Positions 1 through 64,000 of a DNA stretch of 64,000 nucleotides are shown here, one piece after another. Both the position numbers and the translations under genes were made by a program. Source of the DNA: a virus. Taxonomy: Duplodnaviria; Caudoviricetes. The notes beneath the pieces were generated by a model. The model did no database searches, was not told the origin of the DNA, and worked only from the letters and a program-made list of their open reading frames with translations. The stretch spans positions 1-64,000 of the IMG/VR virus record IMGVR_UViG_3300043821_000026, one strand, 5' to 3'. How positions within the stretch are numbered: the first letter of the stretch is position 1; each line of letters begins with the position of its first letter.

Positions 1-1
1 T

Positions 2-799
2 GATACTAAGGCTGTACAATATACAGCTAAAATTGACCCAGAGGAAACTGAACTTATTCGTAAAATTAAAATGGGCTATATTGATTCAGTATCAATTGGA
101 TTTAATTTTGATGCTCATTGTTCAACCTGTGGAAAACCTTTTGGAGAATGTTCACATTGGTTTGGTGACGAAAATGACACTCATATTTTAATGAGAAATA
201 TTGAAATACCAGAATTATCACTAGTGTATGCAGGTGAAGATAGAGATGCAACAGTTAGTGCGGATTTCAGTATTGAAAAATTTAAAAAAGAATTTAAGGA
301 TAAAAAAAGTGATTTTATGACTGAAAAAACTATCGAAGAGTTACAACAAACTGTTTCCGATAAGGAACAAGAAGTTAAAGATGTAACCGAGAAGTTTGAA
401 AAAGAACTTGAAAATAAAACTAAAGAGTTTGAAGCTTTTAAAGAAGACAAACTTAGTGCTATTACAAGATTAACTGCGGAAAGAAATCAATTCGAAAAAG
501 AATTAAAAGAAGCTAATGCAGAATTAGAACAATTCCATCAAGCTGTTGAAGAACAAAAACAAGCAGAACTTGATGCTAAAGTAGATGAAATTTATACTAT
601 CGCAGAAAAACTTAATGTAGCAGATACAATTGATGTTGAAAATGCTGATGAAACTTTTATTGACAGTACCTTAGGTATGTTAAAAGAGTTAGATGAAAAA
701 ACACCACAAATTGGTCAATTTAAAGATGACCAACAAGATGTTTTAGAAAAAGACGATACAAAGAAGTTTCATATAGAAAAATTCTTTAACAAACAATAG
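2..799 (+). CDS. Prohead (capsid maturation) protease with C-terminal coiled-coil scaffold region, 5'-truncated by window edge
   Basis: The frame is open from position 2 (DTKAVQYTAKIDPEETELIRKIKMG...), so the track start at 71 is internal. It carries HK97-type protease motifs 'KMGYIDSVSIGF' and 'ELSLV' plus a CxxC...CxH insert. The acidic coiled-coil C-terminal half begins at MTEKT (ATG 317). Lies upstream of the decoration and capsid genes. Confidence 0.8.
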   Translation, partial: DTKAVQYTAKIDPEETELIRKIKMGYIDSVSIGFNFDAHCSTCGKPFGECSHWFGDENDTHILMRNIEIPELSLVYAGEDRDATVSADFSIEKFKKEFKDKKSDFMTEKTIEELQQTVSDKEQEVKDVTEKFEKELENKTKEFEAFKEDKLSAITRLTAERNQFEKELKEANAELEQFHQAVEEQKQAELDAKVDEIYTIAEKLNVADTIDVENADETFIDSTLGMLKELDEKTPQIGQFKDDQQDVLEKDDTKKFHIEKFFNKQ

Positions 800-808
800 G
801 TGATTTAA

Positions 809-1258
809 ATGGATACAAGTGGTGACCAATTTACTGTTAAAGCTGGAGAAGAAATCGTAGATGCTATTAAAAAATATGGTACTACATCTTCTATCGAAAA
901 AGTAGGTAAAGCTGTATATATAACAGAAGATGGAGCTAAGGTTTCATCTGCAACTACAGACCCTGCTGCATTTGGTGGAATAATATTTGCAGTATCCGGT
1001 GAAGCAGAAACTAATTTAACAAGTAAAGTACCTTATTTTGATGGTAACTATACAATACCAAAAGGTAAATACTTTACAATGGCAAGAAATTGCTTAATTC
1101 ATGTAATGGGTGATGCAACTATCAAAGAAGGAGATATGATTACTCTTGGAGCTGATGGTTCATTTACAAAAACTACTGATGCAACCAAAAAAGTTGGAAC
1201 TGCATATAGTAACCCAAGTTCAAATAATATAATTTACGCTTACATAGGAGCGCAATAG
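809..1258 (+). CDS. Putative head decoration/cement protein
   Basis: 149 aa, between scaffold and MCP. Beta-rich with a 'IKEGDMITLGADGSFTK...VGTA' pattern typical of capsid cement proteins. GGTGA RBS. Confidence 0.6.
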   Translation: MDTSGDQFTVKAGEEIVDAIKKYGTTSSIEKVGKAVYITEDGAKVSSATTDPAAFGGIIFAVSGEAETNLTSKVPYFDGNYTIPKGKYFTMARNCLIHVMGDATIKEGDMITLGADGSFTKTTDATKKVGTAYSNPSSNNIIYAYIGAQ

Positions 1259-1271: not shown

Positions 1272-2174
1272 ATGGCAAAAGATTTAGCTGAATTTGCTAA
1301 CGGCTCTGTAAAGATGAATGATAATGCATGGGACCCAGAGCTTAGTACAGATATTATAGAATATATGGAACAAATATCAGATTTCAGACAATTTGTTAGA
1401 ATATTTCCGACAGATAGTTTTGCAGTAGTATTACCAAGACGATGGTCTACTGGTATTGCTGTAGAAGTAGTTGAAGGTTCTGAAATACCTAAAGCACACG
1501 ATGTCTATGATAATATTAACATTAACTTAAGACAAAACGGTACTGGTATTAGAATGACTGATGAAGCTCAAAAAATGATGAAGTTTGACCAAAACTATTT
1601 CCAAAAAGAAGCTCAAAGAGCTGTTGAAAGAATGGCTAAAAAGGAAAATACAGATATCGCTAATGTATTATTAGCTGGTGCTGGATTAACCGTACAATCA
1701 GCAAATAAAGTATTAACATTTGATGATATAGTAGATACTAAAACTATTATGGAAGAAAATCCTTACGGAATGGAACCAAATGTTATATTAATGAGCGCAA
1801 GAAGCTATGCTGATTTAATTAAAGACCCTAACTTTAAAACCTACTCTAATTCTGGAATTGCTGGTGTCGTAACTACTGGTAATATTGGATTAGAAGTAGA
1901 TGGTATGAGTATTATAAAAATACCTGAAGTAGGAGATAATGTTTATTTAATAAACACAGCTGAAGACCCAATATGGTTAGTTCAAAATGGAACTATGAAT
2001 ACTGAAAGTTACAGAATACCTGAAACTCGTGAAGATGCTTTAGATTTAACTTTATATGAAAAACCAGCTGTGCTTAGACCAGACGCAATTGCAAAAATTG
2101 AAATTACTCGTACAGATGAAAAACGAACTTTCCCTGAAGGTTGGGACCCATTAACTGGCTACCCAAATCCCTGA
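1272..2174 (+). CDS. Major capsid protein (HK97 fold)
   Basis: 300 aa with the HK97-like pattern 'AVEVVEGSEIP', 'GIRMTDE', 'PNVILMS..SYADL', 'PAVLRPDAIAKI'. Expected synteny and GGTGA RBS. Ends CCC-TGA. Confidence 0.9.
   Translation: MAKDLAEFANGSVKMNDNAWDPELSTDIIEYMEQISDFRQFVRIFPTDSFAVVLPRRWSTGIAVEVVEGSEIPKAHDVYDNININLRQNGTGIRMTDEAQKMMKFDQNYFQKEAQRAVERMAKKENTDIANVLLAGAGLTVQSANKVLTFDDIVDTKTIMEENPYGMEPNVILMSARSYADLIKDPNFKTYSNSGIAGVVTTGNIGLEVDGMSIIKIPEVGDNVYLINTAEDPIWLVQNGTMNTESYRIPETREDALDLTLYEKPAVLRPDAIAKIEITRTDEKRTFPEGWDPLTGYPNP
2169..2174 (+). other. Putative +1 programmed frameshift site CCC-TGA (shifty stop) at the end of the MCP gene
   Basis: The last codon CCC is followed by TGA. The +1 frame (CCT GAT AAC TCT...) is open from here to 2703. 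Confidence 0.75.
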
Positions 2175-2703
2175 TAACTCTGTCGAGCGAGCCATCAAGT
2201 TTAACGTTACTGATGGCGCAAGTTCCGTAAATGGAGCAACTGTGCAATTATCTAATAACGAGAATACTTATAATGGAACTACTACTAATGGTAGTGTAAC
2301 ATTAAGTAATGTCGTTGATGGCAGTTATACTTATACTGTTACAAAAACTAATTATGATACTGTAACTAAAAGTGTAACAATTTCAGGTGATGAAACAATT
2401 AACGTTACAATGCAAATTAAGACTGGAACAGTATCTATAAGCGTATTAGATGGTACCAACTCTGGAGTAGCAAATGCTGTAATTACATTAACTGATACAA
2501 ATAATAGCAGTAATAAATTCGCTACAAGCAATAGTGGAACAGGTTCATCTGGTGGAGCAACTATCAGTTCTGTAAAATATGGAACATATAAAGTAACTCT
2601 TGATTTAACAAACGCAACAGGATATACAGCTCCTACTAGCATTGATAATTTAGTTGTAGATAGTAGTGCAGAAACATTAAATATTAAAGTAACTAAGAAT
2701 TAA
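2170..2703 (+). CDS. Tandem Ig-like/carboxypeptidase-regulatory-like domains, probably expressed as a C-terminal MCP extension via +1 frameshift
   Basis: The track ORF 2242..2703 has a GTG start and no clear RBS. The frame extends upstream as PDNSVERAIKFNVTDGASSVNGATVQL, completing the first beta-sandwich. It parallels the second domain (VSISVLDGTNSGVANAVITL). Confidence 0.75.
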   Translation, partial: PDNSVERAIKFNVTDGASSVNGATVQLSNNENTYNGTTTNGSVTLSNVVDGSYTYTVTKTNYDTVTKSVTISGDETINVTMQIKTGTVSISVLDGTNSGVANAVITLTDTNNSSNKFATSNSGTGSSGGATISSVKYGTYKVTLDLTNATGYTAPTSIDNLVVDSSAETLNIKVTKN

Positions 2704-2740: not shown

Positions 2741-3124
2741 ATGGCAACAAAGAAAACAAAAGATTCAAGTCAAAAAACAATTAAAATCACATTTAATCCT
2801 TTAAATAGTGCGGCAATGGAAAAGGTAGTTTTATTAAAGAAAACTAGTGTTCAATTAGTAAACGGAGTTCAACAATCTGTGATAGAAGATTTAATTGAGG
2901 GATTACCACAAGTCTTTAGTGTTAAAAAAGACGAAATAGTTGAAGTAACTCCTGAACAATTTAAACAATTATATCAATTAGGTTTTGTTGAAACTGAAGC
3001 TGAAAGAGAAGCTAGAATTAATGAAGAAAAAGAATTGCCTTCTCAATTTGGTGTTGACCCAGATGTTAAAACAACAAGTCAACTAAATGACCTTTATAAA
3101 GATAAGTTCTTAATGGTTGAATAA
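2741..3124 (+). CDS. Hypothetical virion-associated protein
   Basis: 127-aa ORF with GAGGT RBS in the head-neck region. No recognisable motif. Confidence 0.6.
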   Translation: MATKKTKDSSQKTIKITFNPLNSAAMEKVVLLKKTSVQLVNGVQQSVIEDLIEGLPQVFSVKKDEIVEVTPEQFKQLYQLGFVETEAEREARINEEKELPSQFGVDPDVKTTSQLNDLYKDKFLMVE

Positions 3125-3951
3125 TGATGATAGATATAGCATATATACGACAAACATTACAACTACCTGATACTTTATTAGATACAACTATTAGTTATCT
3201 AATAAAACATTATTATGAGTATTTAGTTGAAATGATGAATTTAGATACAACAATGGAAAAAGAAGGTATTAGTACTGAAATAGTTAAAGACAATACTATA
3301 CCAGAAAATCCTTTGATAGATAGTAAATTAACAGTATTTCAACAAACACTTATTTTAGGTATAGCTTGTAATTTAAGTAATATGCAAATATCTATTAACA
3401 ATATTAATGACATTGAATATAATTATTTCATACAACATATTGATTTAACTAATATAAAATTAACAGATGATGGAATAAGATATATCTTAGATTGGTGTAT
3501 ATTATATAATTCTTATTTAGCTATTTTAAAAACTTATTCAACTGATTATTCAACTGTTGATTATATCAGAAGATTATTTAATCTTGATGATGAATTAATA
3601 CCTGATAATCAAATTGAGTTTTTATTAGACCACTATACAAATTTAGTAAAGGATAAATTAGGTGATAAAGCTGATGTAAATAGTGCTACTTTTAAAGAAG
3701 TTGTATATTTAGGTATAGCTTGTCAATTGTTTAAAACAAATCCAACAGCTATTATCAGTCCTAAGGAATATGAAGTTGGTGATGTAAGTGAAACATTTGA
3801 TACTTCATTTACTAAATCAGCAGATACTTGGTGTGATATGTATGATGATGCACTTAATGATTTAATAGCAGATACTGAAGGATTTCATGGCTTTAAAGCT
3901 TTTGGAAGAGGAAGCGCACGGGAGAAATATGGATATTACGGCCCTCAATAA
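3124..3951 (+). CDS. Putative head-tail adaptor with internally duplicated helical domain
   Basis: Expected position after MCP. Two homologous halves (YIR..L.L.D.L...I..L..HY...F.....LGIAC.L...WC..Y). C-terminal 'EYEVGDVSETF' resembles gp15/gp6-type adaptors. Confidence 0.6.
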   Translation: MMIDIAYIRQTLQLPDTLLDTTISYLIKHYYEYLVEMMNLDTTMEKEGISTEIVKDNTIPENPLIDSKLTVFQQTLILGIACNLSNMQISINNINDIEYNYFIQHIDLTNIKLTDDGIRYILDWCILYNSYLAILKTYSTDYSTVDYIRRLFNLDDELIPDNQIEFLLDHYTNLVKDKLGDKADVNSATFKEVVYLGIACQLFKTNPTAIISPKEYEVGDVSETFDTSFTKSADTWCDMYDDALNDLIADTEGFHGFKAFGRGSAREKYGYYGPQ

Positions 3952-4366
3952 AATTATTAAAAGACCAACTGAAAAATATATTTTACAAAAAAAGGTAGAT
4001 TATATAGTAGATAATACTAATAATATATTAAAAGATGAAGTTGGTAATATTATTACTAAAGATGAAGTTGGTAATATTGAATCTGAATGGAAAGATTTAA
4101 TAACTTTAGAGGGTGTGATTCAACTTAAACAAATATCTAATATTGATAATTCCGGTGAAGAAAGCGCAATACAATACGTTGGATATTTTAATCCAAAAAA
4201 ATTTAATATCGAAACAGATAATTTATCAAGCTATCGTGTAAAAATTATTCGTGATTATGAAATTGTTATTTTAAAAATAACAGAATTTAATCCAAATTTA
4301 TTTTTACGAAATGATAAGCACCATTATAAAATGGGTTTTGTGGAGGATAAAAAATATGGTAAGTAA
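3929..4366 (+). CDS. Putative head closure/stopper protein
   Basis: Synteny and the 'DEVGNIESEW' pattern. Start moved to ATG 3929, which follows a GGAG RBS (track start 3887). Confidence 0.55.
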   Translation: MDITALNKIIKRPTEKYILQKKVDYIVDNTNNILKDEVGNIITKDEVGNIESEWKDLITLEGVIQLKQISNIDNSGEESAIQYVGYFNPKKFNIETDNLSSYRVKIIRDYEIVILKITEFNPNLFLRNDKHHYKMGFVEDKKYGK

Positions 4367-5042
4367 AAATGGATTTAGTTCTATTAAATCAAAATACCCA
4401 TCTTTATTTAGTCCACAAGGTAATGTACATATGAGTTTTTACCCAATAGATACTTGGAGTGCTTTATTTATTATAGATGATGTTATAAGTAATACTTGTA
4501 ACTCTAAAACTAATAATGTTAAAGCTAAAGCCGCAGCTAGTGCTACTAAGGTATTTATAGACGAAGCACAGCAAAACTTTACCAAAGTTGGTTTACGTAG
4601 TTCTGGTAATCCATATGGTGAAAGTGATGATATGTATAATAAATTTTTTGGTCAAATTAATGATAAAGGATATTTAGTATTAGGTAATAGTGCGATAAAT
4701 CCTGCAAATGGCCAACCATATCCTGCTCATTTAGAATTTGGTTATAATGCACATGGTACAAGAGTTGGTCCTTATAATTATATTAGACCTGCTGTATATA
4801 AGGCAGCAGAAAAATATCGTCAAGAATTAAGTCGAGATACTATGTTAGAAGTCCAAAAAATGATTGCTTTACGAAGTGTATATGCTAATGTTTTATCTGC
4901 GATACCACCAAATAAAAGCAAAACTGTAAGAGTTGGCGATTTTGAAACATACGATTCAGATTTAGGTCCCGGCTCAACATATACTACACCAACATATGGT
5001 AGTCAATATAGTATGCCTACAACATATCCAAAGAGTTTTTAA
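4356..5042 (+). CDS. Putative neck/tail-completion protein (HK97 gp10-like)
   Basis: Motif 'YPAHLEFG....GPYNYIRPAV' typical of gp10-like neck proteins. Start moved to ATG 4356 after GGAGG. Confidence 0.6.
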   Translation: MVSKNGFSSIKSKYPSLFSPQGNVHMSFYPIDTWSALFIIDDVISNTCNSKTNNVKAKAAASATKVFIDEAQQNFTKVGLRSSGNPYGESDDMYNKFFGQINDKGYLVLGNSAINPANGQPYPAHLEFGYNAHGTRVGPYNYIRPAVYKAAEKYRQELSRDTMLEVQKMIALRSVYANVLSAIPPNKSKTVRVGDFETYDSDLGPGSTYTTPTYGSQYSMPTTYPKSF

Positions 5043-5043
5043 A

Positions 5044-5814
5044 ATGAAAACAAGAAATGAAGTAATTTATTCAGTTCGTGAAATTATTGGAGATGAAACT
5101 CCAGAAGGGTTTTTTACTATTTTAGATGATGGTACAAAGGTTCCAAATTATCTATTTAAAGATGGTAAAAGTATATATCCAGAAATTAGAATATCTCCAT
5201 TTATTGATAATCAAGAAAGAACTATGTTGGAATCTAAATTATGTAGTGCATGGAGAAACTTTAAGGATATTTATAAAGGTAAATTTCAAATTGATATTTT
5301 TTCTACCAATATACCTCAATTAAATAAAATCTGTAGAGAGATTGAAACTCGTATAAAAGATTTTACAGATGTTGAGGCAATTTTATACGATTATACACCA
5401 GATTTTGTTCAAATTGGTGATTATTATAAAAATACTATATATGATAAAGAAAATTTTAATATTGGTTGGTTAAGTATTGATGGAATTATGTTAAAATCAG
5501 TATCTAATATAGATGAGTTAGTTGAAAATTCATGGTTTATTAGTAATGATGGTTTATATGTCAAAACTGACTTAGATATTACAAAGTTAAAAGTATTATG
5601 TATATATGGTGGAAGATTCTTTAATAATCATGACAGCTTATATCGTCGTGGAATATTTTCTTTAAGAATTTCAAATACACAAAATTTAAGTGCATTAGAA
5701 AATAATGAAGTAGAAAGAATTATTATAGAAATAGATATTATATATGGATTAGATAGACCTCGTAAAGATGGTCCTTTAGTTGATAATATAAATATAGGTG
5801 CTAAAGATGGCTAG
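5044..5814 (+). CDS. Putative tail terminator protein
   Basis: Located shortly upstream of the sheath gene. 'FQIDIFS...LNKICREIE' pattern of tail terminators. ATG 5044 follows the previous stop directly. Confidence 0.5.
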   Translation: MKTRNEVIYSVREIIGDETPEGFFTILDDGTKVPNYLFKDGKSIYPEIRISPFIDNQERTMLESKLCSAWRNFKDIYKGKFQIDIFSTNIPQLNKICREIETRIKDFTDVEAILYDYTPDFVQIGDYYKNTIYDKENFNIGWLSIDGIMLKSVSNIDELVENSWFISNDGLYVKTDLDITKLKVLCIYGGRFFNNHDSLYRRGIFSLRISNTQNLSALENNEVERIIIEIDIIYGLDRPRKDGPLVDNINIGAKDG

Positions 5815-6074: not shown

Positions 6075-7730
6075 ATGGTAAAAGGAATTCCTTATATTAG
6101 AATAAAAACTAGTAGCGATAAAGCATACGATAAACCAGACCATACCTATTTATGGGGAACTATTGTAGAGTCTACAAGAGGTCCTGTTAATACTCCAACT
6201 TTTGTGGAAAGTAAAGAACATGCTAAACAATTATTTGGTGTTAACTTAGACCCATTCTTTGACAATGGTGGTCGTGGATTAATGGTTATTCGTGCTGGTA
6301 TTGAAGATGAAACTCGTAAAATTACTAAAGGAAGTTTAGATTTACAAGCTAAAATGGACTATTCAATGGTAATGGAAGATGGTGCGGAATCTACAGCTGT
6401 AAGTAAGACAGCAGAAACAATTATAAAATTAGAAAATAATAATCCGGGTAGTAATAAAACAACAGTAACATTTACTACATATCCTCGTGGTGGATACTCT
6501 ATCAAAATATCAACCGATAATTTTGTCACCATTAATATACAAGGTGCTAAAACATTACAAAAATTAGTTGATACAATTAATAAAAAATCTTACACACTTA
6601 CTGCTACATTAACTGAAAGTGGTAAAATTTTTGATAGATTAATGACAGGTAAAACCAATCCTGACGGAGAACCAACTCAAAAAGGTCAAATTACATCTAT
6701 TACTAAAGATGGTAATAAAATTATTGATATCTTAGAACCAGCAGCTACTTTTGCTGGAACAGATGGTATATATGATACTGTTAATGATTGTATACCTAAT
6801 AATACTGAACCTTATTATGCTTTACAAGCTCATACTAATGCTTTAGAATTATTTGATAACATCAGAGTAGCTGGTGTATTTTGTATAAGACCAGAATCAG
6901 ATATTCAAAATGCTTACATATATCATTCAGCAAAAATGAGTACTGATGATGTATGTAGATGGAGATATGCTGTTATTGGCGCTAATGATGCAGATATATC
7001 AACTGTTGATGAAAACTTAAATCCTAGCATTGAAGGTTTATTAAGTAGAGCATTATTATGTGATAGTCAATATATTATATATATTGGACAAGGTGCTTAT
7101 GATTATGATGGTAATTATATCCCTGCATATAAAATGCCGATGTATTGGGCTGGATTAAGAAGTAAATTATCTTATGGTATTTCTATGTTTGGTGGAGATA
7201 CAGAAAAGGTTTTATATAGCTATTCATATGATGAAAATGAAAATAAACCTTTATATGATGTTGCTCCATTATTAAAAGGAGAAACTACTGTTCCTTTCGA
7301 ACCAGATACATATGTGGCATTAAATGAAGGCGGAGTTGTAACTTTGAAGAAAGAATATGACACCGTCACTTTTAGAGAAGGTGTTACTACAATGCAAACT
7401 GGTAACGATTATGGTACAGAAGAATCTGTAGTAAATATCGTTAAATATGCTCTTGACCAAACATACGATGTATGTTATTCATATCAAGGTAAAAATTTAG
7501 TTAGCTCATTAAAAGCATCTCTTGAAGAAGCTATTAAAGTAAAATTAAATGATATGCAAACATTTGACCAAACTTTAGTTGATGTTGAATCAGATAGTAT
7601 TAAAGCTTATGATGTTAGTGTTATCGTAACCCCTAGAGCAGGTCAAAAAGTTGGTAAAATATATGTTAATCTTAAGATTACTCCAGTATATGCTTTAAGA
7701 CAAATTGAAGCAAGTGTAATCGTACAATAA
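6075..7730 (+). CDS. Contractile tail sheath protein
   Basis: 551 aa. N-terminal 'RGPVNTPTFVES...FG...FFDNGG' and C-terminal 'LNEGGV...FREGVTT...IYVNLKITPVYALRQI' sheath motifs. Confidence 0.9.
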   Translation: MVKGIPYIRIKTSSDKAYDKPDHTYLWGTIVESTRGPVNTPTFVESKEHAKQLFGVNLDPFFDNGGRGLMVIRAGIEDETRKITKGSLDLQAKMDYSMVMEDGAESTAVSKTAETIIKLENNNPGSNKTTVTFTTYPRGGYSIKISTDNFVTINIQGAKTLQKLVDTINKKSYTLTATLTESGKIFDRLMTGKTNPDGEPTQKGQITSITKDGNKIIDILEPAATFAGTDGIYDTVNDCIPNNTEPYYALQAHTNALELFDNIRVAGVFCIRPESDIQNAYIYHSAKMSTDDVCRWRYAVIGANDADISTVDENLNPSIEGLLSRALLCDSQYIIYIGQGAYDYDGNYIPAYKMPMYWAGLRSKLSYGISMFGGDTEKVLYSYSYDENENKPLYDVAPLLKGETTVPFEPDTYVALNEGGVVTLKKEYDTVTFREGVTTMQTGNDYGTEESVVNIVKYALDQTYDVCYSYQGKNLVSSLKASLEEAIKVKLNDMQTFDQTLVDVESDSIKAYDVSVIVTPRAGQKVGKIYVNLKITPVYALRQIEASVIVQ

Positions 7731-7743: not shown

Positions 7744-8181
7744 ATGGCTAACCCAGTATATTTTGAAACAGGATATATAGTAATTGGTTCTAAACAATTT
7801 AGAGTACAAGAAATTACTGTTAACGCAACTAGAGATTTAAATCCATATTATGTTAGTGATTCAAAAGAACCATTAAGTATAAGAGCAGGTCGTAAGAAAA
7901 TTGAATTCACTTGTAAAAGAGCATTTTCAGATGCTATCTTAGCAAAAATGTATGAATACGATTGTGAATTTACTATGATTTTATTTAATGCAGACCCTGA
8001 TACAGACCAAAAATTAATGACATTAAATAAATGTAGACTTTCTCAAGATAACATTGGGCCTATTAATGGTCAAGATGTTGTTATGGAAGATATTCAAGGT
8101 CAAGCAGGAAGTAGAAGTTTAGATTTCGATGAAATCAACGCTGCTGTAGCTGCTGCTTGTAACTTATCTAGTAATAGTTAA
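7744..8181 (+). CDS. Tail tube protein
   Basis: 145-aa beta-rich ORF directly after sheath. AGGAGG RBS. Confidence 0.8.
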   Translation: MANPVYFETGYIVIGSKQFRVQEITVNATRDLNPYYVSDSKEPLSIRAGRKKIEFTCKRAFSDAILAKMYEYDCEFTMILFNADPDTDQKLMTLNKCRLSQDNIGPINGQDVVMEDIQGQAGSRSLDFDEINAAVAAACNLSSNS

Positions 8182-8283: not shown

Positions 8284-8847
8284 ATGGTAGATAAAATATT
8301 TGATAAATCAAATCTTAATGAAAAAAGCGAAGATGAAAATAAAGATATTTTCGATGATGTAGCAACTGCGGATGAACAAATAAATACTAATGCAACTGCG
8401 GATGAAATACTTAAGCAAATGCAAGACGAAGTAGATAAAAAATCTAAACAAAGAAAACAAAAACGTTTAGATGAATATAAATCAGTTGCGGCAACAAAAT
8501 CTGCATTATTTTCAAGAACTGGTAAATTAATAGATATACCTATACCTATTAATGATGATGAAATAATGATTTTTAAAGTTAGAAGATTATCTGAAGCTGA
8601 TAATTCTGATATTCTCGACCGTTCATTAGCTGTTAAAAGTTTAGAAAATATGACTGCTGAAGAATTAGAAGAATCAAATGAATATAATTTTAGATTATTA
8701 GAAAAAGCAGTTGTTGAGCCTAAAATGACCGCAACTGATTGGAAGCGTGTTGATACTGCATTAATGAGAGAATTGGTTACAAAAATTAGTGATGTATTAA
8801 GCAATGTTGATGATACTGTATTATATGAAGATTTTAGAAAAAAGTAA
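8284..8847 (+). CDS. Tail assembly chaperone (gpG-like)
   Basis: Between tube and tape measure. 'FKVRRLS...AVVEPKMT' pattern. Ends in slippery A-AAA-AAG-TAA. Confidence 0.8.
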   Translation: MVDKIFDKSNLNEKSEDENKDIFDDVATADEQINTNATADEILKQMQDEVDKKSKQRKQKRLDEYKSVAATKSALFSRTGKLIDIPIPINDDEIMIFKVRRLSEADNSDILDRSLAVKSLENMTAEELEESNEYNFRLLEKAVVEPKMTATDWKRVDTALMRELVTKISDVLSNVDDTVLYEDFRKK

Positions 8848-9029
8848 GGGAAGATAGCGAATTTCAAATGGATTATTTCTTATGTAGAATATTAGGAAAA
8901 ACTCCGGGTCAAATTCGAGAATTGGAACTTCGAGGTTTATTAACACCAGAGCAAAAAATATTCCTTATAGCAGGAATGGAGTATGAATTTGAATTATCTG
9001 GCGAACGAGGACCTATGTTCTTTTTGTAA
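8838..9029 (+). CDS. -1 frameshift extension of tail assembly chaperone (gpGT-like); not in the ORF track
   Basis: Heptamer A AAA AAG at 8838-8844. The -1 frame reads VREDSEFQMDYFLCRILGKTPGQIRELELRGLLTPEQKIFLIAGMEYEFELSGERGPMFFL* (61 aa, stop 9027-9029). Confidence 0.8.
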   Translation, partial: KKVREDSEFQMDYFLCRILGKTPGQIRELELRGLLTPEQKIFLIAGMEYEFELSGERGPMFFL

Positions 9030-9071: not shown

Positions 9072-9107
9072 AAAAATTTTATTATTTATATACAACAAAA
9101 AATAGAT
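9072..9107 (+). promoter_or_regulatory. Repeated viral promoter copy P2
   Basis: AAAAA-TTTTATTAT-TTATATA (9086-9092)-CAACAAAAAATAGA, then GAGGT RBS of the tape measure gene. Confidence 0.65.
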
Positions 9108-9136: not shown

Positions 9137-12100
9137 ATGCCATATGCAATGTCAACAAGTGACCAAATTATTAATTTTGCTTTTAGAAGTACAAATCAAA
9201 TGGGAGGAACATTATTAGCTGTTCAATCTGGGCTAAATTCATTAACAGCTGTAGCAGGTTCTGTAGGTAGAGGATTATCAGATGCGATGAGTTTAACGCA
9301 ATCAGCAGCGTTAGCTATTGGAACAATTTCAGTTATGGCTTTTGGGCAAGCAGTTAATGCTGCCGGAGAATATGAAGCTAAAATGGCACAAGTACAGGCT
9401 ATTTCTGGACAAAGTGCTGCGGAAGTTGCTCAATTAGGAAATTCTGCTCAACAATTATCTGTTAAATACGGTATGTCACTTGATAATGTTACTAATGGTT
9501 TAATTACTTTAGGTCGTGCTGGTATTAATAATGCAGCTACTCAATCAGGAGTATTGGAAGAAGGATTTAAAATGGCAAAACTTGAAGGTATAGACCTCAA
9601 TACAGCATTAGAAGATTTAATTACAACAACTAACTTATTAAGCCAAACTAATGTTGATATGAATTCACCTGAATATATAACTCAAGTTAAAGAAATGAAC
9701 ACTAAACTTCTTACCGCATCTCAAGTTGCTCCAATTGATGTTAATGATGTAATAGAATCATTACAATATTCAGGAGGTTCAGCTGCGGCATCTCATATGG
9801 ATACAGATAATTTATTAGCTACCATATCAGCTATGGGAGCTAGAGGTACTAAAGGTTCGTTAGCGGGTACTGCATTACGTAATTTTATGACTAGAGATAT
9901 TACTTCTACTGGTAAAAATGCTTTAGAAAGTATTGGTATAACACCAGATGATTTTTGGAAAGCTGGTGGTAATCAAATGCGAAACATATCTGAATTAAAG
10001 CAAATCATTGATGAGAGAATGCAAACATTGGGTATGTCTAGACAAGAGCAATTATCATTTTGGTCTAAGTTTGCAGGACAAAAAATGGCAAACCAATTAA
10101 TGAAAATTGACCCATCTGAAGTTGAAAAATATCAAGAACAAATAGAAAAAGGTGCTGATGTTGAAAATGAAATGAATACCATTTTAACATCAACTAAAGA
10201 ATTGTGGAATGAAATAACAGCTGCTGGTGAAAATTTTGTTGTTAATGTTGGTTCTAAAATACTAGCTGTTGTAAATCCTATATTCCAAGTAGTTAAAGGT
10301 ATTGTTAGTGGAATAGGTAGTATACCATATTTAAATGATATTTTAGGCGTATTAGGAGCTGGTGGATTATTAGTAGGTGTTAGTGCTGGTGCTATGGCTT
10401 TATTTAACGTATTAGGTCCTAGTATAGCGTCATTAGTTAGACGTTTCAGAGAAGGGGAAAGTTGGACAAGTAAAATTAAAAATGAAGTTTTATCAATTAA
10501 AGACACTTGGAATGCAATGAAAAATCCAGCAGCATTTCAAGAAGGTGCTATAAGTTTAAATGACGCAGAAAGACAACAAATACTACAGGAAGCAGCTCGT
10601 AGACGATATGGTCAGTACGGATATCCACAAACTATTCAAGATAAAATGTGGGCAAAGGATGATGCTATTAGTAAAGGCCATGCTGTAAAAGAAATGTTTT
10701 ATGTACCAATAGAAGAAAGAGATAAAAATAAACATTATGTCAAGCCTACTGATGAATTAATTAGTATGATTATTGGTGAAAAATATGAATCATCAAAAGA
10801 TTTAGTTTCAATTGGTTCTAATAAGAATAATTTAAATACAAAAAATCAACCACCATCAGGTACAAATGAAGCCGAAGATAGAGCTAATCGAAATGATAGG
10901 GTAAAAAATATCAACGATAATCTTATTAAAATAGTATCTAATATGTCAGACTTTATGAAAACTTGTAATGATGGTATTAATGGTATATCAACTTCAATAA
11001 CAGATAATATAAGTATTAGTAATGGTCATCTTAAAGAAATTGAAGCAAAATTAACATCAATATCTAAAGTTGGCGAAAAAATTAGTACTGCTAATAAATA
11101 TTTAAATAATATTAATGAAAAAATTAAAAAATTAACCACTACTTTAGATAAAATCAATAAAAGAGAAGATACAACAAATAATGACCAAAAAGCAGAAATG
11201 GTTATTACACCTAATTCTGATAAAACAAATATTACTGTGGGTATAAATTTTAATAAAGAGGAAATTAATAATCTTAAGAAACAAATAGGTAAGCTAGAAA
11301 TAGTACCTAAAATCAAAATTAATGAAAAAGATTTTCAATCTCAAGTTAATTCTTTGAAGTTAAAAACTAATGTTATACTAAATACGGATAAAAATGATAT
11401 TGAAAAGAAAATAGAAAATATAAACAGTAATGTTGTTTTAAATATTAAAAATCTCAAGGAAATTGAACACATTACAATAACACCAAAAATTAATATAAAA
11501 TATCTACAGGAAGAATTAAGTAAAGCTAGTATGTCTGTAGAGTCGAAAGGTAATAATATTAATCCTATTGATTCTAAATCTATGTCTTCTGGTATTAAAG
11601 AAGGTATAGCATCATCTATAGATAATATATCTACCAGTATATATAATGGTATAAAAAAATCTGAAATAGAACTTATAGATATTATTAAGAAAGGAATAAA
11701 TGCTCATATTTCTGATAAAAATAGAATCGAATCCCAAGCTCGACAAAGAATTATTGAAGAACGTAATGGAAGAGAGGGGCTAGCGGGATTAAGAGAGGAA
11801 CTTAGTTCTAACAACACCAATACAAATGTAAACGATGGTAGTATAGAAAATCTTATTCAACAAAATCGTACTGCAAAAGGGTCTTTAAACCCACAAAATA
11901 ATAACGAATTAGTAACAGAAGCTCATACTGTAATACCTAATAGTGATGAAGATACTTTTTATAATAAGGAAAAAACCGTTCGTGAAAAAAGAGCTGAAGA
12001 AAGAGAAAGACAAAGAAGAGAGGAAAATAGATTAAACTCTTTGTCTATGGCATTAGTAGTTGCTGAACAAAAAGAACAGCAAAGACAATTATTACTATCT

Positions 12101-24443: not shown

Positions 24444-24452
24444 AGGTGAAGT

Positions 24453-26991: not shown

Positions 26992-26992
26992 A

Positions 26993-27560: not shown

Positions 27561-27585
27561 TTAATTAGAAATGAGGTATTATATA

Positions 27586-38907: not shown

Positions 38908-38909
38908 AA

Positions 38910-48677: not shown

Positions 48678-49082
48678 ATGAATCAAAAATTAGATAAAAC
48701 TCAACATTCAGTATACAAACTAACATATCATTTAGTATTAGTAACCAAATATAGGAGAAAAGTAATTGATACACCTATCTATAATAGATTAATGAATATT
48801 TTTCAAAATATTGGTTTTAAATATAATGTTGTAGTTTTAGAATCTAATTTTGAATCAGACCATATACATATATTGTTTAAAAGCTTTCCTAATATTAATC
48901 TACAAAAATTTGTTAATTCATATAAAAGTGCAAGTAGTAGATTAATTAAAAAAGAATATCCAAAAATAAAAAGAAAGTTGTGGAAATCTCAATTTTGGAA
49001 AAGAGGGTATTTCATAACAATTACTGGTGGGGCAAGTATCGAAACTATAAAACAATACATAGAAAAACAACAAAGGAGGTGA
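48678..49082 (+). CDS. tnpA: IS200/IS605 Y1 (HUH) transposase
   Basis: 'HSVYKLTYHLVLVTKYRRKV', HUH motif 'DHIHIL', 'KSASSR', catalytic Tyr in 'IKQYIEKQ'. Confidence 0.97.
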   Translation: MNQKLDKTQHSVYKLTYHLVLVTKYRRKVIDTPIYNRLMNIFQNIGFKYNVVVLESNFESDHIHILFKSFPNINLQKFVNSYKSASSRLIKKEYPKIKRKLWKSQFWKRGYFITITGGASIETIKQYIEKQQRR

Positions 49083-49086
49083 GATA

Positions 49087-50300: not shown

Positions 50301-50309
50301 AGTATATAA

Positions 50310-60900: not shown

Positions 60901-63900
60901 TTAATGTTACTAATAATAGTAAAAATGATAATGATGAATTTGGAGATTTATATTTAGATATTATACTACCTAAAGAATTAAGTGACTGTGTTATAGATGA
61001 TAAATACTTTAACTATCGAGATACTACATATCACAACATTATTACACTTAAAATACCTATACTAGATAAATGTAAAACTAATACTGTTTGCTTAGGTATT
61101 AAACCAAAAACAAAAGGTTCTTTCTCTACATTAATTGTATTATATGGAGATAATATTGACGTACAAACAAAAAGATTAACTATAAATGTTGATGATGTAT
61201 TTCCAGAATATCAACTAGAACATTATTTAAGTATATATAACTTTGAACGTAGTAATAAATATTATACATATCAAAGTATCTATGGAGCAACCGATTTACA
61301 AAAACTATTCCATAAAGGTGATAGGTCACTTCGTATGATTGAAAGAAATCCATATAGTGTCAAAACAAGTGAAACATATACTGGATTTAATTTAAAAGAT
61401 TTATGTTCAGACATTGAAAATTCTCGTTATATTAAACCAGTATTTTTACGTGAAGGAACTAATCAGTTAAAGAATGACTTATACCAAATATATCCTGATG
61501 GATTTATTCGTAGATTTGGTTTATTACAATCAGAGATATATCATAATACTGGAGTATTACCAAAAACAGTTGACATGATTGATAGTGTTATGAAATGGGA
61601 TGTCGACAATTGGGATTCTAAATTATGGGGAGGAGATATTTGGGATAGTGGTGTATTTAAAATTAGTATTGACTATTCTAAAATCCCATCTAATTTTAAT
61701 AGAATTAAAATGCCTCAATTACAAAATATTGTTAATGAAACAAAACCATATGGATTAAAAGGTATTGCATATTATTCTGATACTGAAGAATTTAGATTAA
61801 AAATAAAAATGAAAGATATTGCAACTACATTAATAAATAGCTGTAAATTTTTATTATCAAATATTGATATGGGTATACTTTCAAAATATATATATTCAGA
61901 TGGTAGATTAATAATGAATGATAACTCTGTAACATTTGATATGAATAAAATTAATTTAATATTCAATGATATTAAATATAAAACATATTCTCAAACATCA
62001 AGTAAAAATAATCGTAATGCATTTGGATTATTACCAAAAATGGATGTTAGTGCTTATTATTTCCAAACAAAATATTATCAAAACAAAATATCTGAATATA
62101 ATGATATTTTTAATTTTAATAATTTATCTAAATTTACTTTAACAAAAATCGTTAATAATAAAAAAGATTCAAAATATCATTACAGTATTGATAAAAAGTC
62201 ATATAATATTAATAATGCAAGTAATGATATTCATTCAACTGTTAAAAGTGAATTGATTAAAGACCCATTATTATCAAATGAATATCAATTATTATATGCA
62301 TTCAATGAAGATATAGTAAATAATACTGAATTTGGTGTGTATTTAGAGGATGATAGTGGAAAAAATATATTAAGAGCTTGTAGATTTAGAGATTTAGTTT
62401 CTGGACAAGATGGATTTAGATTAATGTTAAATGATGATGTTTTAAATCTAGTTAATATTAATAATAAAGTATATAGCTTCCAAATATTAGTACAAAGAAG
62501 TCAAGATGATTATTTACATTTCTTTTATATAATCAATAATGAAAACATAGCATATCATTTTGGTTTTTATAAAGATTATAATAGAATGAATAATCAAGGA
62601 GTTTATACATTAAAAACACGTAATATACCATCTACTAATAATTATAATTTTGATAATATATATGTTATATATGATGATTCAGATGTTACAGTTTCATTAT
62701 CAAATAATTATAAGACAATAACAAAATCTAATGATAATTGTATTCAAATTAAAGACGATATTATTTGGGATAATTTTAATAATTTATACAATAGTGGAGA
62801 ATATATTTCTTGTAAGTATTCTAATGATAAAGATAAAGAATGTATTTTAGGTAATAGTAAAAAATACACAAGCCCAATAGTTGCATGTTTTGATAATATT
62901 GATATTGATGATTCAGTACAAATTAAAGATATAGGAATAAAATTAAAGGCAGAAAGTAATAAATCAAACTTTATGAATGATATTGATGCAAGTATTATTT
63001 TAGATGGTAATTCTTACATACCAAAAGACGTTGGAAATAAAATCATTTATCCTAATAATGTTGCAAATATAGGGAAAGAATATTATCCATCAATTGATAT
63101 TGAAGAAGATAATGTTACATATTGTAATAATTGTGGTTCTAAATCAAATGGTATACATTCTTATTGTCCAGTATGCGAATCAACAGATGTTAAATTACTT
63201 ATAAGTACATATACTACTTGTCATCATTGTGGATTAAGTTCTAAAGGCTATTATACATTATGTCCTAATTGTAAGTCAAGCGATGTTACATATAATAATA
63301 TAAACAAAACATCTACATATTGTAATAATTGTAAAGATTTAATTGATGGATATTATGATATCTGTCCTCATTGTAAAAGTTCTGATACAGAAATTATAGG
63401 GGTAACATCAAATATAACACAATGTGATAATTGTGGACGTTTATCAGGTGGATTTTATTCATTATGTCCATTCTGTTTTTCACCAAATGTAGAATATAAA
63501 AATAGATTATCACAACAAGAATATAATTATAAGTTATATAGCAATGACGTAAAATATCCTTTTAACACTATACATTTTGATACAGATATTAATAAAGTAC
63601 AAGTTTGTGATTTAAAAATTAATATGAACAAAGATAGTCTTAATTTAGATAAATTATCATCTATGATATTACATATAAAAGGTAAAAATAATTTAGATTA
63701 CCAATTCCATGTATGTGGGGACTGTAATAATATCGGAGATGGTAAGCAAGATTACTGTTCATATTGTAATTCAGATAATGTTCAAAACTATGGAACTGAT
63801 TTTATTAAATTAATAGGATATGCAGTATTTGATGGTGTAATAAGTAATTTAAATATTGATTCACCTATTATTAATTATGGAGATTTTGATATATCTATTG

Positions 63901-64000
63901 ATATATTAAATTTAATAAAAAAGAATAAGAAAGAATCCTTTACTCTTAGATTCTTTATTCAAAATAATTATGAAAAATCATTATTACCTATTATTAATGG
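57978..64000 (+). CDS. Large (>2000 aa) adhesin-like virion protein with DUF11-like domains and zinc-ribbon repeats; 3'-truncated and absent from the ORF track
   Basis: ATG 57978 follows GAGGT (MFESYKTLPTVIEG...). The same frame reads cleanly where spot-checked, including 63120 and the window end (...QNNYEKSLLPIIN). The track reports no closed + ORF here. DUF11-like 'WNIGNLSVNEIKQLVITY' and 'PNVNELLDYTIEVTNN'. Five CxxC-x10-CxxC units. Confidence 0.85.
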   Translation, partial: MFESYKTLPTVIEGTTGHSTKYATQMLTNPNNLTSTDINLAYWGVKRPKYMGNYLRDWPDAVSSRNGSFFTPEKIIAKGFNKPSNVNDDGIIKSIKVIYKIGKISYSSKTAHGTFKAPTIELKNGNTSLSSIKGHAPPEDGIQNNSGENVNAKELKNTYTEPFDITNKILHIKDIPNLTVSFANTNNTSTNHCRVVMQYLQLEIEYEDTPCFRTSIAYSGDREKQLDSEFNVWVQVEGQNSISKNTHCEIKLPTGLEFDRNNIKTQYGDANNDVYRIMEKDGYNVIDWEVNQLNDTTVGTDIVGNINKIATAKIFIPVKATKTGEYTISSEVMEFADANYKGKDSRNFLVYKTTRTENLSLKLSQHLVNIGENVELDVFYTTNKGINGTVGIRSDTFNVKWYTYINGIETPIELPYTNNTYYFEVKTEEATTYVYKGIVDTSHSANGSFSAFKNDNTGATNTNAPSVSLTVQAPLFDRENLSLTVEDGTSVEYNHIIFTKGDDLEKPLIYKEYELDNSPVNKIRIEGHNKHIPLNQVQYVTFDVSLPKVDNIQDVISYKNLLFEPEIINQTDGTVDNIIVGCNSDISLLDSKYIVLNSISSGETKEIKLAVHSDVIKTDNITLLLYGKRTRMVKVTNTQKVTDDTANNIEKTTYTEYEETFSTPAKVLFEDLASLKLNIYNEQNIYDFTYNIDKYGDLFYTPFDLIYTVQNVSNIEAKNVKIKINEPQFFKIDNDKSSSNYNHETNIWNIGNLSVNEIKQLVITYTPTRKGIYQFSSQTIDSDKTFDDDIYQNEYRCNVMVDYVAKTNIVQNISNTQPNVNELLDYTIEVTNNTKTRNILTINIDDIGNFNDNHLGNHYQIESIDCEYGKFTKGTNKLIGTWVLENLGINKTYYLNLTLRPISTGSHDIRITSSEIDYSNTLIINILKNKAKVNMNAYQGIDLRTNKNTPALCTDYTQFCDDDFLSLGDEFGYVINVTNNSKNDNDEFGDLYLDIILPKELSDCVIDDKYFNYRDTTYHNIITLKIPILDKCKTNTVCLGIKPKTKGSFSTLIVLYGDNIDVQTKRLTINVDDVFPEYQLEHYLSIYNFERSNKYYTYQSIYGATDLQKLFHKGDRSLRMIERNPYSVKTSETYTGFNLKDLCSDIENSRYIKPVFLREGTNQLKNDLYQIYPDGFIRRFGLLQSEIYHNTGVLPKTVDMIDSVMKWDVDNWDSKLWGGDIWDSGVFKISIDYSKIPSNFNRIKMPQLQNIVNETKPYGLKGIAYYSDTEEFRLKIKMKDIATTLINSCKFLLSNIDMGILSKYIYSDGRLIMNDNSVTFDMNKINLIFNDIKYKTYSQTSSKNNRNAFGLLPKMDVSAYYFQTKYYQNKISEYNDIFNFNNLSKFTLTKIVNNKKDSKYHYSIDKKSYNINNASNDIHSTVKSELIKDPLLSNEYQLLYAFNEDIVNNTEFGVYLEDDSGKNILRACRFRDLVSGQDGFRLMLNDDVLNLVNINNKVYSFQILVQRSQDDYLHFFYIINNENIAYHFGFYKDYNRMNNQGVYTLKTRNIPSTNNYNFDNIYVIYDDSDVTVSLSNNYKTITKSNDNCIQIKDDIIWDNFNNLYNSGEYISCKYSNDKDKECILGNSKKYTSPIVACFDNIDIDDSVQIKDIGIKLKAESNKSNFMNDIDASIILDGNSYIPKDVGNKIIYPNNVANIGKEYYPSIDIEEDNVTYCNNCGSKSNGIHSYCPVCESTDVKLLISTYTTCHHCGLSSKGYYTLCPNCKSSDVTYNNINKTSTYCNNCKDLIDGYYDICPHCKSSDTEIIGVTSNITQCDNCGRLSGGFYSLCPFCFSPNVEYKNRLSQQEYNYKLYSNDVKYPFNTIHFDTDINKVQVCDLKINMNKDSLNLDKLSSMILHIKGKNNLDYQFHVCGDCNNIGDGKQDYCSYCNSDNVQNYGTDFIKLIGYAVFDGVISNLNIDSPIINYGDFDISIDILNLIKKNKKESFTLRFFIQNNYEKSLLPIIN

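What the first reader, a model, noticed from the sequence alone, without database searches (positions are those of the whole stretch)
1..64000. Morphogenesis module of an unusually large contractile-tailed virus of a pseudomurein-walled methanogen
Seen: capsid, sheath, tube and baseplate genes plus more than 35 kb of adhesin/fibre genes. The structural module alone exceeds 64 kb (truncated at both ends) and uses TATA-box promoters and a PMBR lysin. Established: pseudomurein is restricted to Methanobacteriales/Methanopyrales, and the classic cultured Methanobacteriales viruses (psiM2, Drs3) are siphoviruses with whole genomes under 40 kb. Inference: a large-genome myovirus lineage of gut-type methanogens whose virion is coated with host-style adhesins.
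Basis: partly seen in the sequence, partly recalled or inferred. Interest (0 to 1): 0.7.

Follow-up and report, generated by a model that had tools for sequence, protein, structure and literature searches.

The report
Large contractile-tailed virus of rumen methanogens
The window is the virion-building half of a complete 138.5-kb contractile-tailed virus from a widespread, unclassified lineage that infects gut and rumen Methanobrevibacter; its only sequenced cultured relative is the methanogen virus PhiF1, so it is a real and interesting member of a known kind of virus rather than a new kind.

Summary
The window encodes a capsid, a tail sheath (confirmed by fold), a tube, a tape measure, a baseplate and 36 kb of Ig-like and beta-helix fibre genes. 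It also encodes a protein with pseudomurein-binding repeats and a C39-like peptidase domain.

The contig is a closed 138,498-bp circle, so the left "truncation" is only the point where the circle was cut. The structural module, from terminase to the last fibre gene, spans about 77 kb.

About 33 genes are collinear with Methanobacterium virus PhiF1 (74 kb, cultured, sheath gene annotated). The premise that cultured Methanobacteriales viruses are all small siphoviruses is therefore incomplete.

Relatives of 136-157 kb are common in ruminant gut metagenomes. CRISPR spacers of M. ruminantium M1 (34/36) and of a species in M. smithii's genus (three perfect) hit two near-complete relatives. No spacer hit this genome itself.

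"Coated with host-style adhesins" holds only for domain types. The fibre proteins lack membrane anchors and are barely similar in sequence to host adhesins.

Tape measures of 2,300-5,000 residues predict very long tails.

This scan has met the lineage before on at least 28 other genomes, in reports I saw mostly about its DnaE polymerase.

Verdict: new member of a known kind; moderate interest.

The parts
1..799 (+). 3' part of a 347-aa scaffold-like head protein. The ORF starts at contig position 138254 and runs through the circular junction.
   Evidence: the contig ends overlap by 4 nt, and contigs L006 and L007 span the junction. The joined ORF is 34% identical to PhiF1 ORF17 over 247 aa. 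Weak PHROG scaffold/protease hits.
809..1258 (+). Probable capsid cement or decoration protein
   Evidence: Pfam Phage_cement_2 and Phage_cement, both below the curated cut-off. It sits just before the capsid gene.
1272..2174 (+). Major capsid protein (HK97 type)
   Evidence: Pfam Phage_capsid_4, 1e-8. 32% identical to the PhiF1 capsid protein, 4e-37. 134 homologue clusters, many on contigs of 131-157 kb.
2242..2703 (+). Ig-like (CarboxypepD_reg) capsid-decoration domains. In some relatives they are fused to the capsid protein.
   Evidence: Pfam CarboxypepD_reg, 7e-12. Relatives have capsid proteins of 395-445 aa carrying these domains.
2741..5814 (+). Five neck / head-tail joining genes
   Evidence: Position between capsid and sheath. 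Homologues of PhiF1 ORF22 and ORF25. Weak PHROG 5 tail-completion hit.
6075..7730 (+). Contractile tail sheath
   Evidence: PHROG 279, 9e-13. 31% identical to the annotated PhiF1 sheath, 3e-68. The AF2 model matches solved phage sheaths, Foldseek 3e-21.
7744..8181 (+). Tail tube
   Evidence: Pfam Phage_tube_2, weak. 46% identical to PhiF1 ORF27. Lies next to the sheath gene.
8284..9029 (+). Tail assembly chaperone with a -1 frameshift extension (8284-8847, then 8838-9029; slippery A AAA AAG at 8838-8844)
   Evidence: PhiF1 ORF32 homologue. The same pair of overlapping ORFs occurs in relatives.
9137..17023 (+). Tape measure protein, 2628 aa
   Evidence: Pfam PhageMin_Tail, 2e-18. PhiF1 tape measure homologue. 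Hydrophobic segments typical of tape measures.
17036..25853 (+). Inner baseplate genes. They are a PhiF1 ORF34 homologue; two hub paralogues (18049-21486 and 21486-24443), the first with a borderline transglutaminase-like hit near its C-terminus; and a PhiF1 ORF36 homologue (24453-25853).
   Evidence: blastp against PhiF1 ORF34, ORF35 and ORF36. Pfam Transglut_core, 1e-4, in the first paralogue.
25864..27508 (+). Baseplate wedge: J-like protein plus a small wedge protein
   Evidence: Pfam Baseplate_J, 2e-10. PHROG 6, 2e-23, and PHROG 975, 3e-6.
27571..40316 (+). A giant 3778-aa Ig-rich baseplate/fibre protein and a 468-aa Ig-like protein
   Evidence: Pfam Big_3_5. 12 and 3 Ig-like domains by iterated HMM. 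Homologues of 3683-3868 aa sit at the same place in three relatives. No membrane segment.
40321..41331 (+). Probable pseudomurein hydrolase: two pseudomurein-binding repeats plus a C39-like cysteine peptidase domain
   Evidence: Pfam PMBR, 5e-12. The N-terminus aligns with a solved pseudomurein endoisopeptidase, 8z4f. Q187, C193 and H285 have the same spacing as in PeiR and A0A126R2S0 (PMC13642728).
41341..47753 (+). Fibre genes: a tail-fibre protein, a Big_1 protein, a beta-helix/PMP-repeat protein (43037-44821), and two more ORFs
   Evidence: PHROG 3904 tail fiber, 9e-14. Pfam Chlam_PMP, 2e-37, and Beta_helix, 2e-29. The beta-helix gene is absent from four relatives.
48678..50226 (+). IS200/IS605 insertion (tnpA and tnpB) inside the fibre module
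   Evidence: Pfam Y1_Tnp, 3e-41, and OrfB/TNB domains. The only close TnpB relatives in the species genomes are two rumen Methanobrevibacter MAGs, 66-67% identical. Absent from four relatives.
50310..57754 (+). Four more fibre genes, two of them rich in Big_3_5 domains
   Evidence: Pfam Big_3_5. Iterated HMM.
57978..64000 (+). First 2007 residues of a 2924-aa fibre protein that ends at contig position 66752
   Evidence: Pfam DUF11. PhiF1 ORF39 homologue. Counterparts of 2433-2644 aa in relatives.
9085..9104 (+). Promoter-like motif with a TATA box. Other copies are at 27532-27551, 50262-50281 and 57927-57946.
   Evidence: 7 matches against 0.76 expected. The layout (T-run, TATA box, purine-rich ribosome site, ATG) resembles regions upstream of genes in Methanobacteriaceae genomes.

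Best explanation
The window is the morphogenesis (late) module of a complete, circularly closed 138.5-kb lytic tailed virus with a contractile tail. The virus belongs to an unclassified lineage of 136-157-kb viruses of gut and rumen Methanobrevibacter. The only sequenced cultured relative of this lineage found here is Methanobacterium virus PhiF1.

One long rightward gene block, with TATA-box-type promoter motifs at a few gaps, makes in order:
- the head: scaffold, cement, HK97 capsid, Ig-like decoration;
- the neck;
- a sheath and tube tail whose length is set by a 2628-aa tape measure (about 0.4 um by the 1.5 A per residue rule; inferred);
- a baseplate with two hub paralogues, at least one with a borderline transglutaminase-like hit;
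- about 46 kb of anchor-less fibre proteins rich in Ig-like and beta-helix domains.

Inferred mechanism: the fibres bind surface glycans or wall polymers of the methanogen, and sheath contraction drives the tube through the pseudomurein wall. The PMBR + C39-like peptidase, and possibly the hub domains, cut pseudomurein at entry and/or at lysis.

Shown: gene identities, gene order, the closed circle, kinship with PhiF1, and the host link of the lineage. Inferred: virion location of each giant protein, tail length, enzyme specificity, and the exact host species.
For: - Structural genes. Sheath fold.
- Terminase and portal lie at the contig's other end. The circle closes there.
- About 33 collinear homologues in PhiF1, at 23-46% identity.
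- Among 50,697 deposited phage genomes, PhiF1 is the only record with a capsid or sheath hit.
- The lineage is common. There are 134 capsid clusters, many on contigs of 131-157 kb. Four IMG/VR relatives span 135.9-152.3 kb, one with terminal repeats and estimated 100% complete. They share the same module order, including a giant protein of about 3,700 aa.
- Host, wall-binding domain: PMBR is found in this genome and in all four near-complete relatives. It is found in 86 of 103 genomes of a Methanobrevibacter genus and in 0 of 14 control genomes.
- Host, CRISPR: a species in the genus that contains M. smithii PS carries three perfect spacers against a 139-kb relative. M. ruminantium M1, identified by its exact genome length of 2,937,203 bp, carries a 34/36 spacer against a 152-kb relative.
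- Host, gene relatives: the only close TnpB relatives are in two rumen Methanobrevibacter MAGs. The only named cellular NrdD hits are Methanobrevibacter.
- Lytic lifestyle: no tyrosine integrase, and a capsid homologue in only 1 of 251 Methanobacteriaceae genomes.
- Fibre proteins have no signal or membrane segments.
Against: - No CRISPR spacer matched this genome itself. The best of 4,578 spacers matched 26-27 of 34 bases. Its host is therefore inferred from relatives that share only about a third of their ORFs at about 37% identity.
- One relative's contig sits in an NCBI MAG labelled "Bacilli bacterium".
- A characterised methanogen protein with the same PMBR + C39-like layout did not cut isopeptide analogues (PMC13642728). 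The lysin's chemistry is therefore open.
- Nothing here shows which giant proteins are in the virion.
- The TATA motif alone could also be read as a phage late -10 element.
Confidence: 0.85

Rival explanations
1. It is a phage of a low-GC bacterium (for example Bacilli), and the methanogen-like features are borrowed domains.
For: A relative's 139-kb contig is contig 1 of an NCBI MAG labelled "Bacilli bacterium". The replicase is a bacterial-type DnaE. PMP/beta-helix homologues are mostly bacterial.
Against: Methanobrevibacter CRISPR spacers hit two relatives, three of them perfectly. PMBR is conserved across the lineage. The core is collinear with a virus cultured on Methanothermobacter, including the split DnaE. 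Binning a 27% GC viral contig with low-GC bacteria is an easy error.
Confidence: 0.03
2. The element is an integrated or defective provirus, or a tailocin-like particle gene cluster, not a free virus.
For: IMG/VR classes the record as linear, with no end repeats.
Against: The contig closes on itself with no host flanks. Terminase, portal and capsid genes are present. No integrase was found. A capsid homologue was found in only 1 of 251 Methanobacteriaceae genomes. One relative has terminal repeats.
Confidence: 0.03
3. Many of the giant Ig-like and beta-helix genes are not virion parts. They would be cargo expressed in the infected cell, for example to alter cell adhesion or block superinfection.
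For: Their domain types are those of host adhesin-like proteins (PMC11532034). The beta-helix gene and the IS are strain-specific. No proteomic data exist.
Against: They lie inside the late operon, directly after the baseplate genes. They lack signal peptides and membrane anchors. Several are homologous to PhiF1 late genes or hit tail-fibre families. The giant, 2,400-2,900-aa and 1,650-aa proteins are conserved in position across relatives.
Confidence: 0.1

Closest known systems
Methanobacterium virus PhiF1 (GenBank MK994522; host Methanothermobacter thermautotrophicus; unclassified)
   Same: About 33 collinear homologues: TerL 36%, portal 39%, capsid 32%, sheath 31%, tube 46%, tape measure, hub, baseplate J, fibres, NrdD and the split DnaE. 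The strand layout is the same, and both have an enzyme aimed at pseudomurein.
   Different: PhiF1 has a 74-kb genome against 138.5 kb here. Its tape measure is 1259 aa against 2628 aa. Its fibre region is about 12.6 kb against 45.8 kb. Its host is a thermophile from digesters, against a gut or rumen Methanobrevibacter. Its lysin is PeiP-like, against PMBR + C39-like. Only about a fifth of ORFs are shared.
Haloarchaeal myoviruses (Hafunaviridae, Halomagnusviridae, Pyrstoviridae, Soleiviridae)
   Same: Archaeal tailed viruses with contractile tails (PMC10791045). From my memory, not checked here, some reach about 144 kb.
   Different: No capsid or sheath match at sequence level in the phage collection. 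The hosts have an S-layer, not pseudomurein. No PMBR domain.
MSTV1 / "Usuviridae", psiM2 and Drs3 (siphoviruses of Methanobacteriales)
   Same: Hosts of the same order, pseudomurein-directed lysins, and Ig-like decoration of gut-associated members (PMC11375127).
   Different: MSTV1 is 38.8 kb, temperate and has a non-contractile tail (PMC11375127); Drs3 and psiM1/psiM2 have siphovirus morphology (PMC9796341). From my memory, not checked here, psiM2 and Drs3 are 26-37 kb. No detectable capsid homology.
PeiR / PeiW / PeiP pseudomurein endoisopeptidases, and the C39-like PMBR protein A0A126R2S0
   Same: N-terminal pseudomurein-binding repeats and a C-terminal cysteine peptidase fold, with Q, C and H at matching spacing (PMC13642728).
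   Different: Sequence similarity to PeiR is marginal (E = 0.1). The activity is untested, and A0A126R2S0 did not cut isopeptide analogues.

Membership tests
Tailed dsDNA virus with contractile tail (Caudoviricetes, myovirus morphotype) | HK97-type capsid protein, portal and large terminase | tested here: met
   (Pfam)..
Tailed dsDNA virus with contractile tail (Caudoviricetes, myovirus morphotype) | Tail sheath protein | tested here: met
   PHROG 279, 9e-13. The AF2 model matches solved sheaths at Foldseek 3e-21, probability 1.00.
Tailed dsDNA virus with contractile tail (Caudoviricetes, myovirus morphotype) | Tube, tape measure with frameshifted chaperone, and baseplate wedge (J) | tested here: met
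Tailed dsDNA virus with contractile tail (Caudoviricetes, myovirus morphotype) | Contractile-tailed particles seen by electron microscopy | not testable with these tools
   No isolate exists.
PhiF1-like lineage | Collinear shared core of morphogenesis and replication genes | tested here: met
   About 33 homologues in the same order. PhiF1 is the only capsid or sheath hit in 50,697 records.
PhiF1-like lineage | Same family by gene-sharing or proteome thresholds | tested here: inconclusive
   About 20% of ORFs are shared at 23-46% identity. No network analysis against published catalogues was possible. PhiF1 itself is unclassified.
Virus of pseudomurein-walled methanogens (Methanobacteriales) | Protein with a pseudomurein-binding domain | tested here: met
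   PMBR is above the cut-off. It is conserved in relatives.
Virus of pseudomurein-walled methanogens (Methanobacteriales) | Host CRISPR spacers matching the virus | tested here: inconclusive
   None of 4,578 spacers matched this genome. Two relatives are matched by Methanobrevibacter arrays.
Pseudomurein endoisopeptidase (PeiW / PeiP / PeiR type) | PMBR repeats plus a Cys-His peptidase domain | tested here: met
   Q187, C193 and H285 have the same spacing as in PeiR and A0A126R2S0 (PMC13642728).
Pseudomurein endoisopeptidase (PeiW / PeiP / PeiR type) | Cleavage of the pseudomurein isopeptide bond | not testable with these tools
   A protein with the same layout lacked this activity (PMC13642728).
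Methanogen adhesin-like proteins (ALPs) | Ig-like (Big3/DUF11), beta-helix, PMP, transglutaminase and PMBR domain types | tested here: met
   set against the domain table in PMC11532034.
Methanogen adhesin-like proteins (ALPs) | Membrane-anchoring segment, and close sequence kinship to host ALPs | tested here: not met
   No signal or membrane segment in any fibre protein. The one Big_3_5 fibre protein tested gave a single hit in the two rumen Methanobrevibacter MAGs searched: 29% over 158 aa.
Jumbo phage (over 200 kb) | Genome above 200 kb | tested here: not met
   138,498 bp.

The most novel reading that the evidence does not exclude
The lineage's tape measures of 2,300 to 5,036 residues really do set contractile tails of about 0.35-0.75 um. 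If so, these would be, to my knowledge, among the longest contractile tails described (I did not check records). Together with a fibre apparatus of about 46 kb carrying 18 or more Ig-like domains (counted in three fibre proteins), this would be an adaptation for reaching capsulated or surface-attached Methanobrevibacter in the rumen.
Probability: 0.3. Interest if true: 0.7.

Novelty: new member of a known kind. Interest (0 to 1): 0.5.

Why it matters
Methanobrevibacter dominates enteric methane production, and few of its viruses are characterised. The only cultured one I found described is the 38.8-kb temperate siphovirus MSTV1.

This lineage appears lytic and is common in ruminant gut metagenomes. 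Its genomes are about twice the size of PhiF1's. That makes it a natural candidate for studying how methanogen numbers are controlled, and a source of wall-degrading and host-binding proteins.

It also gives PhiF1, so far an orphan, a large family. The size of its tape measures and fibre module poses a testable structural question.

Tried and rejected
- Spacer search with raw viral DNA against 251 Methanobacteriaceae genomes. Only two candidates per genome were scored. The short hits were AT-rich intergenic matches or were not in arrays.
- I then extracted 4,578 spacers from 113 arrays next to cas1 in 120 regions. None matched this genome; relatives were hit.
- Capsid search in 251 Methanobacteriaceae genomes gave one weak hit on a 2.3-kb contig, so there is no provirus evidence.
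- Homologues of the beta-helix/PMP protein are dominated by Planctomycetota and carry no host signal.
- The hub paralogues gave only low-complexity matches to solved structures.
- One Big_3_5 fibre protein was compared with two rumen Methanobrevibacter MAGs. It matched at only 29% over 158 aa, so I rejected recent capture of host adhesin genes.
- The Medvedeva 2023 compendium is not held. I could not check whether the lineage already has a proposed family name there.
- Literature searches found no description of large contractile-tailed Methanobrevibacter viruses. One rumen virome preprint reports a clade of Methanobrevibacter-linked viruses with no lysogeny signature that carry NrdD and dUTPase genes, which may be this group.

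Full report
**What is in the window.** All large ORFs lie on the + strand, and GC is 23-34%.

Profile searches give the standard order of a tailed-virus late operon:
- a scaffold-like protein (2-799) and a cement-like protein (809-1258);
- an HK97-type major capsid protein (1272-2174);
- an Ig-like/CarboxypepD_reg protein (2242-2703);
- five neck genes;
- sheath (6075-7730) and tube (7744-8181);
- a chaperone (8284-8847);
- a 2628-aa tape measure (9137-17023);
- inner baseplate genes, including two paralogous hub proteins; Pfam gave a borderline transglutaminase-like hit near the C-terminus of the first (18049-24443);
- baseplate J (25864-26991) and a small wedge protein (26981-27508).

After the baseplate comes an unbroken run of fibre-type genes to the window end:
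- a 3778-aa protein with at least 12 Ig-like domains;
- several Big_3_5 and Big_1 proteins;
- a tail-fibre family protein;
- a beta-helix/PMP-repeat protein;
- the first 2007 residues of a 2924-aa protein with a DUF11 domain.

The chaperone has a canonical -1 slippery site, A AAA AAG, at 8838-8844. It opens a 63-codon extension.

**The sheath call.** This call carries the "contractile" claim, so I tested it by structure. Only 63 representatives in 1.84 billion proteins match it. A model built on 30 of them (pLDDT 83, pTM 0.81) matches solved phage sheaths: phiCD508, DSY3957, phi812, P1, T4, and a Halogeometricum borinquense (archaeal) contracted-sheath structure. Foldseek E-values go down to 3e-21.

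**The whole element.** The window is the first 64 kb of a single 138,502-bp record, 27% GC, which IMG/VR classes as a virus.
- Its last four bases repeat its first four.
- A 6.8-kb contig (90-95% identical) and a 48.8-kb contig (about 75% identical) both read straight across end to start.
- With the overlap removed, a 347-aa ORF homologous to PhiF1 ORF17 runs through the junction.

The genome is therefore a closed 138,498-bp circle, and the window's left edge is only the cut point. Terminase and portal lie just before the junction.

The late module runs from 134,934 across the junction to 73,375. That is about 77 kb, or 56% of the genome. Of this, 45.8 kb (27,571-73,375) is fibre genes.

The other strand carries NrdD with an intein, a DnaE-type polymerase split into PHP and core genes, a D5-like helicase-primase, a methyltransferase and five tRNAs. 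No tyrosine integrase was found.

**Closest relative.** In 50,697 deposited phage and virus genomes, the capsid and the sheath each hit only one record: Methanobacterium virus PhiF1 (74 kb, host Methanothermobacter).
- The next-best terminase hit has 22% identity.
- PhiF1 is annotated with a tail sheath, baseplate J, tape measure, PeiP-like endoisopeptidase, NrdD and a two-gene DnaE.
- A six-frame comparison finds about 33 homologues in the same order.
- PhiF1 is unclassified (PMC9796341).

**The lineage.**
- The capsid protein has 134 homologue clusters in public data, many on contigs of 131-157 kb.
- Samples carrying relatives include ruminant gut metagenomes.
- IMG/VR holds relatives of 152,284, 145,330 (terminal repeats, estimated 100% complete), 138,976 and 135,897 bp.
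- These share 40-55 ORFs with this genome at about 37% identity. The module order is the same, including a 3,683-3,868-aa protein after the baseplate in three of the four and two long fibre proteins in all four.
- Full-length tape measures in relatives are 2,685 to 5,036 aa; two more (2,313 and 1,540 aa) may be cut short by a contig end or ORF calling. PhiF1's is 1,259 aa.
- The beta-helix/PMP gene and the IS200/IS605 insertion are absent from all four relatives.

**Host.**
- PMBR occurs in this genome and in all four near-complete relatives. It occurs in 86 of 103 genomes of a Methanobrevibacter genus and in none of 14 control genomes.
- I extracted 4,578 spacers from 113 CRISPR arrays beside cas1 in Methanobacteriaceae species genomes.
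- One array has three perfect spacers (37/37, 35/35, 34/34) against the 139-kb relative, plus a fourth with 29 of 31 aligned bases matching. Its genome belongs to the genus that contains a genome of 1,853,160 bp, the published size of M. smithii PS, and the two named rumen Methanobrevibacter MAGs.
- A second array lies in a genome whose single contig is 2,937,203 bp, the published size of M. ruminantium M1. It has a 34/36 spacer against the 152-kb relative.
- No spacer matched this genome itself; the best matched 26-27 of 34 bases.
- Indirect support for this genome comes from its TnpB and NrdD. Its TnpB has only two close relatives among 185,579 species genomes, both rumen Methanobrevibacter MAGs. 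The only named cellular NrdD hits are Methanobrevibacter.
- The "Bacilli bacterium" label on one relative's MAG is best explained by binning on composition.

**Promoters.** A 20-nt motif containing TTTATATA, which I recall as the methanogen box A (TATA-box) consensus, occurs seven times against 0.76 expected. All copies are on the + strand, and four lie 39-52 nt upstream of start codons. These gaps resemble regions upstream of genes in Methanobacteriaceae genomes. This fits archaeal transcription but is not proof on its own.

**The lysin.** The 336-aa protein has two pseudomurein-binding repeats that align with a solved endoisopeptidase. Its C-terminal domain has Q187, C193 and H285 spaced as in PeiR and in the C39-like protein A0A126R2S0 (PMC13642728). 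That second protein failed to cut isopeptide analogues, so the bond attacked here is unknown.

**Adhesins.**
- The domain types are the ones tabulated for host adhesin-like proteins: Big3/DUF11-type Ig-like, beta-helix, PMP, transglutaminase, PMBR and CarboxypepD_reg (PMC11532034).
- The viral proteins have no signal or membrane segment.
- The one Big_3_5 protein tested matched a rumen Methanobrevibacter MAG at only 29% identity over 158 residues.
- They follow the baseplate genes, and several are homologous to PhiF1 late genes.

I read them as virion fibres that work like adhesins, not as captured host adhesins. Enrichment of Ig-like domains in gut Methanobacteriales viruses is already reported (PMC11375127, citing Medvedeva 2023).

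**Verdict.** The feature is real and the reading is largely right. It is a large, probably lytic, contractile-tailed virus of Methanobrevibacter with an unusually expanded tape measure and fibre apparatus. It is a new member of a known kind, within a PhiF1-related lineage that this scan has already met on at least 28 other genomes. I could not check whether published catalogues have named the group.

Noticed in passing
window 8284-9029: The tail assembly chaperone has a canonical -1 slippery heptamer, A AAA AAG, at 8838-8844, just before its stop codon. It opens a 63-codon extension. Relatives have the same pair of overlapping ORFs.
   Followed up: partly
window 47754-50309: An IS200/IS605 element (tnpA and tnpB) sits inside the fibre module. 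It lies next to about 900 bp of coding-like sequence that is broken into short frames, possibly a disrupted fibre gene. Four relatives lack the element.
   Followed up: partly
window 46561-47366: A perfect (100% identical) tandem duplication of 402 bp inside the fibre gene 46239-47753. It looks very recent.
   Followed up: no
window 43495-44354: Eleven tandem 78-bp units (89% matches) encode the PMP repeats of the beta-helix protein. The gene has no counterpart in four relatives, so it is likely an accessory gene or a recent gain.
   Followed up: partly
window 1272-2703: In several relatives the capsid protein is 395-445 aa and carries the CarboxypepD_reg/Ig-like domains that here sit in a separate downstream ORF.
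   Followed up: partly
L027, L092, L094, L095 (relatives): Tape measure genes of 2,880, 2,944, 4,315, 4,561 and 5,036 residues in relatives, far beyond PhiF1's 1,259.
   Followed up: partly
contig 72659-73375 (L001:12659-13375): The last gene of the late block encodes a 238-aa protein with a single C-terminal hydrophobic segment (206-224). It is conserved in three relatives and is a candidate lysis (holin-like) protein.
   Followed up: no
G254:150034-151968, G255:123515-125377, L027:3245-5095: In G254 and G255 a homologue of the second hub paralogue (21486-24443) lies just upstream of the terminase gene, not beside the first hub gene. L027 has an ORF of similar size at that spot, whose homology was not tested.
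   Followed up: no
contig 76274-79288 and 75549-76168: NrdD is interrupted by an intein with a LAGLIDADG domain. Five tRNA genes (Tyr, Ser x2, Gln, Thr) lie beside it.
   Followed up: no
G254:137960-142675: The protospacer hit by the M. ruminantium M1 spacer lies in a region of the 152-kb relative that carries several diverged copies of the same short sequence.
   Followed up: no
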